Below, piece after piece: positions 21,589 to 23,356 of a DNA stretch of 64,000 nt. Position 1 is the first letter of the stretch; each line of letters opens with the position of its first letter. Location: positions 56,132 to 120,131 of the forward strand of contig CBDCXX010000002.1 of the NCBI GenBank assembly GCA_965223965.1. Reading direction: 5' to 3'. This stretch comes from Phototrophicaceae bacterium (lineage in GTDB: Bacteria; Chloroflexota; Anaerolineae; Aggregatilineales; Phototrophicaceae). The notes below the pieces were generated by a model, which was not told the DNA's origin, ran no database searches, and saw only the letters and a list, made by a program, of their open reading frames with translations. A program made the translations under genes and the position numbers.

Positions 21589-23116
21589 CGCTTATGGTCA
21601 GGGCTCGGGCGACGATGCCTGGCCGCCAGGCGGCGGAGACCCCCCCCTGGCCTGGTCCGGAGACCCTTCCACCTCCCCCTTGCACGCCCTGCTCGGCCAG
21701 CTGAGCGACCGCCCGCTTGGTCGTCTGACCAGGCGGCTGCGCCGGCTGCGCAGGCGCAGCGAACAGCTGGCCCGCCGCGATCCTTCGTCCGTGCCCAACG
21801 TCTTCGCGCCCGAGGTCGGGGCCGTCGCCAGCAGCGCGCCGGGCCGTCGGCGGCGGCGACGACGCCTGAGCCTGAGTGGCGACCGCTTCCTCATTTCGCT
21901 GGTGCTGGCGGGCGGCATGCTGTTGCCCTTCTACAGCGCGCAGACGCGCCTGGGCGAGAGCGCCCCGCTCGAATTCGCTGCTGACAGCCCGCAGCAGACG
22001 CTCTACGAGGCGCTTGATGCGCTGCAACCTGGCGACCTGGTGCTGGTCGGGATGGAATACGGCCCGACTGCCGCCGGCGAGCTGGACACGGTCGCCAGCG
22101 TGCTCTTGCGCCACATCCTGCTGCGGCGCGCGCTGCCGGTCGTCGTCAGCCGCTACCCGGTCACGCTCCTGCGCGCGGAGCATATGTTGCTGGAGCTGGG
22201 CGCCGCCGCTGCGCCGCTGCTGCAGCTGCTGGAACGCGAGGACCCCCTGCTCGCCAACGGGGACTGGTTTGTGACGCGCTTCCTGGCAGGCGACATGGCG
22301 GGCCTGCGCTCGCTGACGATGAATATTGAAAAGCAGCTGGCCAAAGACCTGCGCGGCGCCCCGACCGGCCTGACGGTGGATGAACTGGAGGACTTTGCGC
22401 GCGTCCTCGTCGTCGCCGAGCGGCCCGGAGATCTGCGGCAATGGGCGGAGCAGATCGCCCCGCTGGCCGATAGTAATTTGCTGGGCGCCGTGGGTCAGGC
22501 CGCTGCGCCGTTGACCCGACCCTGGCTGGAGGTGGCGCTGGCGGGCATGATAACCGGCTTCCGCGATGCGCTGACCTATGACTCGCAGCTGCAGGGCCTT
22601 GAGGTGATTGTCGGGCCGCCCTCAGCGCCCAGGAATGTTATGGCGCTGAGTCGCGATGAAAGCATCGCGTTGACCTGGGACCCGCCCCTGTCCGACGGCG
22701 GCGCGTCAATCACCGGCTATTCCATACGCCGCCAGTCTACGCCCTACCTGACGTGGGTGGAAGTCGCCGCTACGGGCACAAGTCACACGCTGACGTCTCT
22801 CGATAACGGCACGTCCTACGACATCCAGGTGCGCGCCAGCAACAGCGAGGGCGACAGCGGCTGGAGTGAACAGATAACCGCCACACCGCGGACGGTGCCA
22901 TCGCAGCCCCGCTCGCTTGACCTGACTGCTGGCGACACGAGCGTGGCGGCCAGCTGGCAAGAGCCCGCCGCCGACGGCGGATCGGTCGTGACCGGGTATC
23001 GGCTGCGCTGGCGCACAGGCAGCGAGGACTGGCTTGGCGCAAACACGACCGAAACGGAATTCACTGCGGCGGGACTCACGAACGGCGATACTTACGAGTT
23101 CCAGGTGCGCGCCAGT
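21581..23116 (+). CDS. Hypothetical protein with two C-terminal fibronectin type III modules, truncated at the 23.11-kb breakpoint
   Basis: ATG 21581 within track ORF 21479-23356. Arg-rich segment, TM segment, then PSAPRNV..LTWDPPLSDGGASITGY...YDIQVRASNSEGDSGWS and PSQPRSL...GGSVVTGY...YEFQVRAS (FN3). The second module lacks its last strand. Confidence 0.6.
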
Positions 23117-23356
23117 GTCTATCTGGGCATGGCGCGCGACATGGCGCGCAGGCTTGCCTTGCAGACCGTTCTGGGCAGCGCTCAGCTTGTGCAGGAGACC
23201 GGGCGGCATCCGGCCGAACTTAAGGATATGGTAACCTCGCCGGGAGGTACGACGATAGCGGCGCTTCGAGCGATGGAGAGCGGCGGTTTCCGCGCTGCCA
23301 TATTTGATGGCGTTATCGCGGCATTCGACAAGTCGGAAGAACTAGGGAAGAAGTAA
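23117..23356 (+). CDS. proC: Pyrroline-5-carboxylate reductase, C-terminal fragment only (about 79 aa)
   Basis: [62 protein letters not shown] is the conserved ProC dimerisation domain. The Rossmann domain is absent. It sits in frame with the preceding FN3 ORF and is followed by yggT. Confidence 0.8.
   Translation, partial: [79 protein letters not shown]

What the first reader, a model, noticed from the sequence alone, without database searches (positions are those of the whole stretch)
23099..23131. In-frame breakpoint fuses an FN3 protein, mid-domain, to the C-terminal third of ProC, at a compositional switch
ORF 21479-23356 changes identity at about 23108-23119.
- Up to codon agt (23114-23116) it encodes a second fibronectin type III module (...GDTYEFQVRAS). 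In the first module this continues NSEGDSGWSEQITATP; here that final strand is missing.
- The frame then continues [58 protein letters not shown], the conserved C-terminal domain of pyrroline-5-carboxylate reductase.
- yggT and DUF167 follow, which is the classic proC-yggT-yggU neighbourhood. The ProC Rossmann domain is absent.
- By eye, G+C and codon style drop at the same point, and the REP/MITE/minisatellite families occur only to the right.

Neither half is a complete domain. An assembly chimera or a recent rearrangement scar is therefore more likely than a functional fusion. The window should be read as two genomic contexts.
Basis: partly seen in the sequence, partly recalled or inferred. 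Interest (0 to 1): 0.6.

Follow-up and report, generated by a model that had tools for sequence, protein, structure and literature searches.

The report
Chimeric contig joining two different bacteria
The odd "FN3-ProC fusion gene" marks the point where DNA of two unrelated Chloroflexota (an Anaerolineaceae bacterium and a SAR202/Dehalococcoidia bacterium) was most likely joined by mistake in a metagenome assembly. It is not a real gene, but it matters for anyone using this genome.

Summary
ORF 21479-23356 switches identity between bases 23115 and 23116.

- **Left of the junction** (contig C2 bases 1-79246): this is colinear at 76-96% with all 11 other genomes of the same Anaerolineaceae genus. 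There the FN3 gene is intact at 716-719 aa, with two FN3 domains, an SH3 domain and a membrane anchor.
- **Right of the junction** (59.3 kb, to the contig end): this is colinear with SAR202/Dehalococcoidia chromosomes. No colinear match was found in any of 20 relatives of the host genome. Its GC is 57% against 64-66%, and its tetranucleotide make-up and interspersed repeats are foreign.
- **Native SAR202 locus:** a same-species SAR202 contig (97% nt) carries an intact 267-aa ProC behind pdxA. The window keeps only residues 189-267.
- **Native host continuation:** in three same-genus genomes (two of them single-contig) the host sequence continues 3.9 kb later into what is the end of contig C6 of this assembly. 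That 3.9 kb is missing from the assembly.
- **The join itself:** the two parents share only CGCC.G at the junction.
- **Elsewhere:** the junction was found nowhere else in what I searched.

Verdict: an inter-genome chimeric contig (about 0.87). A real inter-class transfer is not excluded (about 0.1), because read mapping was not available. Everything right of 23115 should be attributed to SAR202.

The parts
1..23115 (.). Genomic context A: Anaerolineaceae chromosome (contig C2 bases 56132-79246; the A part of C2 starts at base 1)
   Evidence: The last 10 kb is colinear at 76-96% in 11 of 11 same-genus genomes. It is 96.7% identical to L025 over 8.5 kb. It has no meaningful match in three SAR202 genomes. 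GC is 0.656.
21581..23115 (+). 5' 512 codons of the gene for a 716-719-aa FN3-FN3-SH3-TM protein. It is cut in the second FN3 module, before that module's last strand.
   Evidence: Alignment with P0002, P0003, P0004 and P0012. Pfam on the ORF and on P0002. DNA homology to L025 ends at 23115.
23110..23115 (.). Microhomology at the join. The window reads CGCCAG, the left parent CGCCAG and the right parents CGCCGG.
   Evidence: Three-way base alignment. No longer shared sequence exists between the parental loci.
23115..23116 (.). The junction between the two genomes
   Evidence: A at 23114 occurs only in parent A, T at 23116 only in parent B, and G at 23115 in both.
23116..23356 (+). 3' remnant of SAR202 proC (residues 189-267 of a 267-aa ProC, plus the stop). 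It happens to be in frame with the FN3 gene.
   Evidence: 78 of 79 residues are identical to residues 189-267 of the intact ProC of L116. Pfam P5CR_dimer positions 26-105 only. It is only 45% identical to the host genome's own complete ProC on contig C6.
23356..23619 (+). yggT of the SAR202 genome. Its start overlaps the proC stop.
   Evidence: Pfam YGGT, E = 2e-21. The identical protein follows an intact proC on the 10 contigs shown, out of 23 read. The host genome has its own yggT at C6:735678.
23650..23853 (-). Conserved 67-aa ORF of the SAR202 locus, function unknown
   Evidence: Called as a 67-85-aa gene at the same position in the SAR202 contigs.
23903..24166 (-). DUF167/YggU-family gene of the SAR202 genome, convergent with yggT
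   Evidence: Pfam DUF167, E = 2.9e-23. It is the only copy in the assembly. The exact protein is on L117 beside an intact proC.
23116..64000 (.). Genomic context B: a piece of SAR202/Dehalococcoidia chromosome. It continues to the end of contig C2 (base 138581), 59.3 kb in all.
   Evidence: Colinear with G001 (OZ245324.1) from about 2.4444 to 2.5022 Mb. It is 86-97% identical to 11 SAR202 metagenome contigs from 23110-23115 onward. No colinear match in 20 relatives of the host genome. GC is 0.570, and it is a tetranucleotide outlier.

Best explanation
Contig C2 of this metagenome-assembled genome is an inter-genome chimera. Its first 79,246 bases are true chromosome of the binned Anaerolineaceae bacterium. 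Its last 59,335 bases are chromosome of a co-occurring SAR202/Dehalococcoidia bacterium.

The two were joined end to end at window 23115/23116 with no shared sequence beyond CGCC.G. The likely cause is one or a few chimeric molecules or reads bridging two contig dead ends. This step is inferred, not shown.

The join happens to be in frame, a 1-in-3 chance. A gene caller therefore reports a 591-625-aa 'FN3-ProC' protein. That protein is not expected to exist in any cell. Neither half is a complete domain, and the organism has its own complete proC and yggT elsewhere.
For: **Shown**
- **Sharp, reciprocal breakpoint.** Identity to the Anaerolineaceae parent (L025, 96.7%) stops at 23115. Identity to 11 SAR202 metagenome contigs and the species representatives compared (L026-L039) starts at 23110-23117.
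- **Left side is native.** It is colinear in 11 of 11 same-genus genomes, and the FN3 gene is intact (716-719 aa) in relatives.
- **Right side is SAR202.** The whole 59.3 kb to the contig end is colinear with a closed SAR202 chromosome. It has no colinear match in 20 relatives of the host, and the left side has none in 3 SAR202 genomes.
- **The host genome's true continuation exists.** In G008, G012 and G007 the breakpoint and the terminal base of this assembly's contig C6 lie 3.92-3.93 kb apart. That 3.9 kb is absent from the assembly. C2-left and C6 are therefore neighbouring dead ends of one chromosome.
- **SAR202's native locus exists.** In a same-species contig (97.1% nt) it reads RNR-pdxA-proC(267 aa)-yggT.
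- **Three independent composition signals switch at the junction.** These are GC/GC3, tetranucleotides and interspersed repeats. The repeat at window 62402-62559 has at least 27 dispersed copies in SAR202 genome G001. In this assembly it occurs only inside the 59 kb.
- **The host has its own genes.** A complete proC lies at C6:1517713-1518492 and a yggT at C6:735678.
- **The fusion is unique.** Its 90% cluster has 1 member on 1 contig, against 27 members for the intact homologue. The junction is absent from the 11 other genus genomes and from JGI metagenomes.
- **Both parent lineages occur in one sample.** Both are assembled in ERZ25074053.

**Background**
Marker-based completeness and contamination scores do not detect foreign DNA joined within a contig (bioRxiv 10.64898/2026.10.15.759294, abstract). 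Here contamination is 2.66%, like the relatives.
Against:
- The two parents share no repeat near the break. The usual graph-based cause of misjoins does not apply, and a chimeric molecule must be assumed.
- A blunt join with 4-5 bp of microhomology is also what illegitimate recombination in vivo looks like.
- Records of the window's own genome are hidden from the look-ups, so 'found nowhere else' is weaker than it sounds.
Confidence: 0.87

Rival explanations
1. The join is real. An Anaerolineaceae cell acquired at least 59 kb of SAR202 chromosome by illegitimate recombination, for example after DNA uptake in a shared habitat. This replaced the 3' end of the FN3 gene and about 3.9 kb downstream. 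The assembly merely stops inside the insert.
For: A microhomology-only junction (CGCC.G) is compatible with illegitimate recombination. There is no shared repeat that would explain a graph misjoin. The 3.9 kb between the break and the end of C6 is missing from the assembly, as a replacement would predict. Both lineages co-occur in one sample.
Against: - The SAR202 segment never returns to host sequence. It runs to the contig end.
- Contig C6 ends in host sequence to its last base, with no SAR202 DNA.
- The segment is plain colinear chromosome. No integrase appears in the called genes near the join, and there is no tRNA or att-like repeat there.
- No other genus member shows anything similar.
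- Its composition is entirely unameliorated.
- A 59-kb inter-class chromosomal replacement is intrinsically rare, whereas chimeric contigs in MAGs are common.
Confidence: 0.1
2. A functional fusion protein: an FN3 surface protein that has recruited the ProC dimerisation helices as a new C-terminal module.
For: The reading frame is open across the junction and ends at the native proC stop.
Against: - The second FN3 domain lacks its last strand.
- The ProC piece lacks the first 25 positions of its dimerisation domain and the whole NADP-binding domain.
- The SH3 domain and membrane anchor of the family are lost.
- The fusion is a singleton.
- An in-frame join is a 1-in-3 chance event.
Confidence: 0.01
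3. An intragenomic rearrangement scar: both sides belong to one organism and were brought together by a deletion or inversion.
For: Both sides are Chloroflexota, and the contig has no Ns.
Against: - The right side is colinear with SAR202 chromosomes and absent from 20 relatives of the host.
- The SAR202 left flank (RNR, pdxA, 5' proC) is nowhere in the assembly.
- The host already has its own proC and yggT, and its ProC is only 45% identical to the remnant.
- The other low-GC window tested (C9 86-104 kb) is native to the genus.
Confidence: 0.02

Closest known systems
Inter-species chimeric contigs in metagenome-assembled genomes (the class of error targeted by tools such as GUNC or pre-binning chimera correction; tool names from my own knowledge, prevalence from bioRxiv 10.64898/2026.10.15.759294)
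   Same: Foreign DNA is joined inside one contig. This is invisible to marker-based contamination scores (2.66% here). It shows up as an abrupt switch of composition, taxonomy and synteny, with truncated genes at the join.
   Different: Most described cases arise at sequence shared between genomes (rRNA, IS elements, conserved genes). Here the parents share only 4-5 bases, which points to a chimeric molecule or read rather than a graph collapse. The contig-name style of the sister assemblies suggests long-read data (my inference).
Pyrroline-5-carboxylate reductase ProC with the proC-yggT neighbourhood
   Same: The remnant is 78 of 79 residues identical to the C-terminus of a bona fide 267-aa SAR202 ProC. 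It is followed by yggT with an overlapping stop and start, as in the intact loci.
   Different: Only residues 189-267 are present. The NADP-binding domain and the first quarter of the dimerisation domain are missing. DUF167 is on the opposite strand.
FN3-FN3-SH3-TM proteins of this Anaerolineaceae genus (P0002-P0024; annotated only as 'fibronectin type III domain-containing protein')
   Same: The first 512 residues are 70-96% identical to the family and sit in the same gene neighbourhood: glycosyltransferase, DUF6754, then a 228-aa membrane protein upstream.
   Different: The last FN3 strand, the SH3_3 domain, the Pro-rich linker and the C-terminal TM helix with its Arg tail are missing.
Large horizontally acquired genomic islands
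   Same: A long block of deviant composition abuts native sequence.
   Different: There is no second boundary and no tRNA or att repeats at the join, and no integrase appears in the called genes near it. The content is ordinary colinear chromosome of the donor lineage.

Membership tests
Inter-genome chimeric contig (assembly artefact) | Abrupt, coincident switch of base composition and oligonucleotide signature at one point | tested here: met
   GC 0.656 to 0.570, with the change point 100-180 bp from the homology break. Five of five right-hand 10-kb windows exceed the 99th percentile of tetranucleotide distance.
Inter-genome chimeric contig (assembly artefact) | The two sides are syntenic with genomes of different taxa, and not with each other's relatives | tested here: met
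   The left side is colinear in 11 of 11 same-genus genomes and in 0 of 3 SAR202 genomes. The right side is colinear with SAR202 chromosomes to the contig end and in 0 of 20 host relatives.
Inter-genome chimeric contig (assembly artefact) | The genes cut at the join are intact in close relatives of each parent | tested here: met
   The FN3 protein is 716-719 aa in relatives. ProC is 267 aa in a 97%-identical contig and matches full length in the 80 loci kept.
Inter-genome chimeric contig (assembly artefact) | The native continuation of the host genome is found elsewhere in the same assembly | tested here: met
   The end of contig C6 lies 3.92-3.93 kb from the breakpoint in G008, G012 and G007.
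Inter-genome chimeric contig (assembly artefact) | Read support: a coverage step, and few or no reads spanning the join | not testable with these tools
Pyrroline-5-carboxylate reductase (ProC) | N-terminal NADP-binding Rossmann domain (PF03807) | tested here: not met
   It is absent from the ORF. It is present in the intact SAR202 ProC and in the host's own ProC on C6.
Pyrroline-5-carboxylate reductase (ProC) | Complete C-terminal dimerisation domain (PF14748, 105 positions) | tested here: not met
   Only profile positions 26-105 are present.
FN3-FN3-SH3-TM protein family of the host genus | Two complete FN3 modules followed by SH3_3 and a C-terminal TM anchor | tested here: not met
   The second FN3 is cut before its last strand, and SH3_3 and the TM helix are absent.
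Horizontally acquired genomic island | Bounded on both sides by host sequence | tested here: not met
   The SAR202 part runs to the contig end. The neighbouring host contig end carries no SAR202 sequence.
Horizontally acquired genomic island | Integration hallmarks at the boundary (tRNA, integrase, direct repeats) | tested here: not met
   There is no tRNA in 13-34 kb. The genes beside the join are yggT, DUF167, two SDRs, an ATPase pair, birA and fic. The join lies inside two coding sequences.

The most novel reading that the evidence does not exclude
The junction is real. An Anaerolineaceae bacterium has taken up and integrated at least 59 kb of plain chromosome from a SAR202 (Dehalococcoidia) bacterium by microhomology-mediated illegitimate recombination. 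That would be an unusually large, very recent inter-class chromosomal transfer, caught before any amelioration.
Probability: 0.1. Interest if true: 0.65.

Novelty: not a real feature. Interest (0 to 1): 0.12.

Why it matters
As biology it is almost certainly nothing. The fusion gene should not be annotated, modelled or counted as a new domain architecture.

As data hygiene it matters in three ways.
- The assembly appears in a collection holding one genome per species and scores 98.8% complete and 2.66% contaminated. Yet it carries 59 kb (1.9%) of another class's chromosome inside a contig, where marker-based checks cannot see it.
- Everything to the right of window base 23115 belongs to SAR202, not to the Anaerolineaceae host. 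That includes the defence pair, the toxin-antitoxin/RtcB locus and the phage-tail operon that other notes of this scan describe. Any host attribution or 'horizontal transfer' inference drawn from this contig needs correcting.
- The case gives an exact, base-resolved example of a repeat-free chimeric join, which is useful for testing chimera detectors.

Tried and rejected
- **Exact-product look-ups.** Look-ups of the chimeric protein (625-aa and 591-aa forms), the upstream 228-aa protein and the 252-aa SDR found nothing. Records of the window's own genome are hidden, so this is weak evidence.
- **Junction scans.** A 32-mer across the junction gave no hit in JGI metagenomes. That collection probably lacks the source project. 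A 19-mer across the junction was absent from the 11 other genus genomes.
- **Shared repeat between the parents.** I looked for one that could explain a graph misjoin and found only chance 12-15-mers.
- **Other SAR202 pieces in the assembly.** I checked whether other low-GC windows are further SAR202 pieces. The one tested, C9 86-104 kb, is native to the genus (92-99% identity to three same-genus genomes, none to SAR202) and holds no Rfam RNA. A tetranucleotide nearest-centroid classification is dominated by GC and flags many scattered 5-kb windows, but C2-right is the only long run.
- **Rejected readings.** A functional fusion, an intragenomic rearrangement and a genomic island with integration hallmarks; see rivals and membership tests.

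Full report
**What is in the sequence**

ORF 21479-23356 (+) is open for 625 codons. Relatives and the database gene call start at the ATG at 21581, giving 591 aa. Pfam finds two fibronectin type III stretches. It then finds profile positions 26-105 of the 105-position P5CR dimerisation domain at residues 543-622, with no NADP-binding domain.

yggT follows at 23356-23619, its ATG overlapping the proC stop. A DUF167/YggU gene lies at 23903-24166, but on the minus strand.

**The breakpoint, to the base**

A 1.6-Mb metagenome contig (L025) is 96.7% identical to window 14599-23115 and then diverges completely.

Ten long contigs that encode exactly the window's YggT (L015-L024) are 86-95% identical to the window, but only from 23110-23115 rightwards. 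One further contig, L116, is 97.1% identical, again only from 23110 rightwards. The SAR202 species representatives compared (L026-L039) likewise begin to match at 23110-23117.

A three-way base alignment shows:

| Sequence | Bases at the join |
|---|---|
| Left parent | GCGCCAG\|CAACTTC |
| Right parents | ACGCCGG\|TGTCTAT |
| Window | GCGCCAG\|TGTCTAT |

The join lies between 23115 and 23116, give or take the shared G, inside codon AGT. Only CGCC.G is common to both parents. A sensitive search of 6 kb of the left parent against the right-parent loci found nothing longer than chance 12-15-mers.

**What the two halves are**

Left half:
- The intact homologues are 716-719 aa (P0002 96%, then 91-70% identical). 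The few named ones are labelled Anaerolineaceae.
- After ...YEFQVRAS they continue with NFAGDG(R/D)WSASE, the missing last FN3 strand. A linker, an SH3_3 domain, a proline-rich stretch and a C-terminal membrane helix with an Arg tail follow.

Right half:
- The native locus on the 11 contigs read is ribonucleotide reductase (with an intein), pdxA, a 267-aa proC, yggT, a 60-85-aa ORF, DUF167 and two SDRs.
- The window's remnant is 78 of 79 residues identical to residues 189-267 of L116's ProC.
- A scan of species-representative genomes with the intact ProC found 475 relatives. The 80 kept, all matched essentially full length, are labelled Dehalococcoidia, SAR202 cluster or Chloroflexota.

**The window is two genomes**

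The window is G000:C2:56132-120131. The assembly has 9 contigs, 3.18 Mb, 98.8% completeness and 2.66% contamination.

Composition:
- On C2, GC is 62-69% up to base 79246 and 55-62% from there to the contig end at 138581.
- All five 10-kb windows right of the break exceed the 99th percentile of tetranucleotide distance for the rest of the genome.
- The GC change point falls 100-180 bp from the homology break. GC3 drops from 0.82 to 0.68 within the one ORF.

Synteny:
- The last 10 kb of the left part is colinear in all 11 other genomes of the genus, at 76-96%.
- The first 20 kb of the right part has no colinear match in any of 20 relatives. It gives only short 65-72% hits to conserved genes.
- Conversely, the left 20 kb has only 50-80-bp chance matches in three SAR202 chromosomes.
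- Window 23116-32000, window 44001-64000 and the remaining 18.4 kb of C2 are colinear with the closed SAR202 chromosome G001 (OZ245324.1). The match runs from about 2.4444 to 2.5022 Mb and reaches the last base of C2. Window 32001-44000 was not compared with G001.

Repeats:
- The right part gives 171 non-self hits inside itself. It gives only 7 weak hits in the other 3.1 Mb, apparently paralogue-like.
- The element at window 62402-62559 occurs in G000 only inside C2-right. It has at least 27 dispersed copies in G001.

**Where the true continuations are**

The sequence that follows the break in L025 reappears, from 3.9 kb downstream onwards, at the very end of this assembly's contig C6, which ends inside glnA. 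The intervening 3.9 kb holds the FN3 3' end, a 224-aa gene, a 59-aa gene, a LysM protein and the 5' part of glnA. It is absent from the assembly.

In same-genus genomes G008, G012 and G007, the C2 breakpoint and the C6 terminus lie 3,923-3,929 bp apart in the expected orientation. C2-left and C6 are thus adjacent dead ends of one chromosome.

The SAR202 left flank (RNR, pdxA, 5' proC) is nowhere in the assembly. The host genome has its own complete proC at C6:1517713-1518492, only 45% identical to the remnant. It also has its own yggT at C6:735678.

**Is the junction seen anywhere else?**

- The chimeric protein's 90% cluster has one member on one contig, against 27 members for the nearest intact homologue.
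- Exact-product look-ups found nothing.
- The junction 19-mer is absent from the 11 other genus genomes. A 32-mer is absent from JGI metagenomes.
- These negatives are weakened because the window's own records are hidden from the look-ups.
- Both parental lineages are assembled from one and the same sample, ERZ25074053.

**Interpretation**

Every line of evidence fits an end-to-end misjoin of two contig dead ends from two co-occurring Chloroflexota. The two parts are 79.2 kb of Anaerolineaceae and 59.3 kb of SAR202.

Because there is no shared repeat, I infer that a chimeric molecule or read made the bridge, rather than a graph collapse. This step is inference. The contig-name style of the sister assemblies suggests long-read data, which is my own reading of the names. 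The in-frame continuation is a 1-in-3 accident.

Marker-based quality scores cannot see such joins (abstract of bioRxiv 10.64898/2026.10.15.759294). Indeed this assembly's contamination value is like that of its relatives.

**The alternative that cannot be excluded**

A real insertion or replacement of at least 59 kb of SAR202 chromosome by illegitimate recombination remains possible without reads. Several points argue against it:
- There is no second boundary.
- C6 ends in pure host sequence.
- There is no tRNA or att repeat at the join, and no integrase appears in the called genes near it.
- The block is plain colinear donor chromosome with unameliorated composition.
- Nothing similar exists in the genus.

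I put this at about 0.1. A functional fusion (about 0.01) and an intragenomic rearrangement (about 0.02) are effectively refuted.

**Limits**

The decisive test therefore could not be run: the depth step, and the reads spanning 79246/79247 of C2.

**Consequences**

Split C2 at 79246/79247. Do not annotate the fusion. Attribute everything right of window base 23115 to SAR202.

An earlier follow-up note of this scan (e1-2973977) had already found that the tail operon at 43.7-46.6 kb is conserved in SAR202. This agrees with the colinearity I measured for 44-64 kb.

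Noticed in passing
G000: between C2:79246 and C6:2244117 (outside the assembly): About 3.9 kb of the Anaerolineaceae chromosome is missing from the assembly: the 3' end of the FN3-SH3 gene, a 224-aa gene, a 59-aa gene, a LysM protein and the 5' end of glnA. 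Contig C6 ends inside glnA. In three same-genus genomes the two contig ends are 3.92-3.93 kb apart.
   Followed up: yes
window 62004-62690 (C2 118004-118690, also C2 120272-121151 just beyond the window) and window 40796-40905: These are SAR202-type short repeat families, with units of about 30-50 bp arranged in tandem arrays plus elements of about 110-160 bp. In this assembly the element at window 62402-62559 occurs only in the 59-kb SAR202 piece, but it has at least 27 dispersed copies in the closed SAR202 chromosome G001.
   Followed up: partly
G000:C9:86001-104000 (L114): A low-GC (0.55-0.59) region native to the Anaerolineaceae genus. An 8.4-kb core is 98-99% identical to other species of the genus, clearly above the 92-96% seen for flanking sequence. 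It has no match in SAR202 and no Rfam RNA. It could be a recently exchanged mobile element or a very conserved locus.
   Followed up: partly
L015-L024 positions ~1-3700 (SAR202 contigs, left of proC): The ribonucleotide reductase gene upstream of pdxA-proC in the SAR202 contigs carries an intein with a LAGLIDADG homing-endonuclease domain. In one contig (L021) the gene is called in two pieces.
   Followed up: no
L116 6546-7552 (ERZ25072854 ctg40828_2x_l): pdxA is split into 179-aa and 167-aa calls on this 2x-coverage contig, but is an intact 334 aa on the ten other contigs. This is probably a consensus error at low depth.
   Followed up: no
window 24168-24178 and 25880-27755 compared with L016-L022: Two variable insertion slots occur in the SAR202 population. 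An Mrr-type restriction gene or a 323-aa gene sits between DUF167 and the first SDR in some strains. The ATPase+PIN pair (window 25896-27773) is present in only some strains.
   Followed up: no
window 23116-64000: Earlier notes of this scan on this window all lie in the SAR202 part of the chimera: the ATPase+PIN pair, the TA pairs with RtcB, the phage-tail operon and the PLD nuclease. Any host assignment for them should be SAR202/Dehalococcoidia, not the Anaerolineaceae bin.
   Followed up: partly
window 11502-12518 (C2 67633-68649): A LysM-protein paralogue is 81% identical over 1 kb to the LysM gene that lies in the missing 3.9-kb stretch. Such a near-repeat 11 kb away may have contributed to the contig break there.
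   Followed up: no
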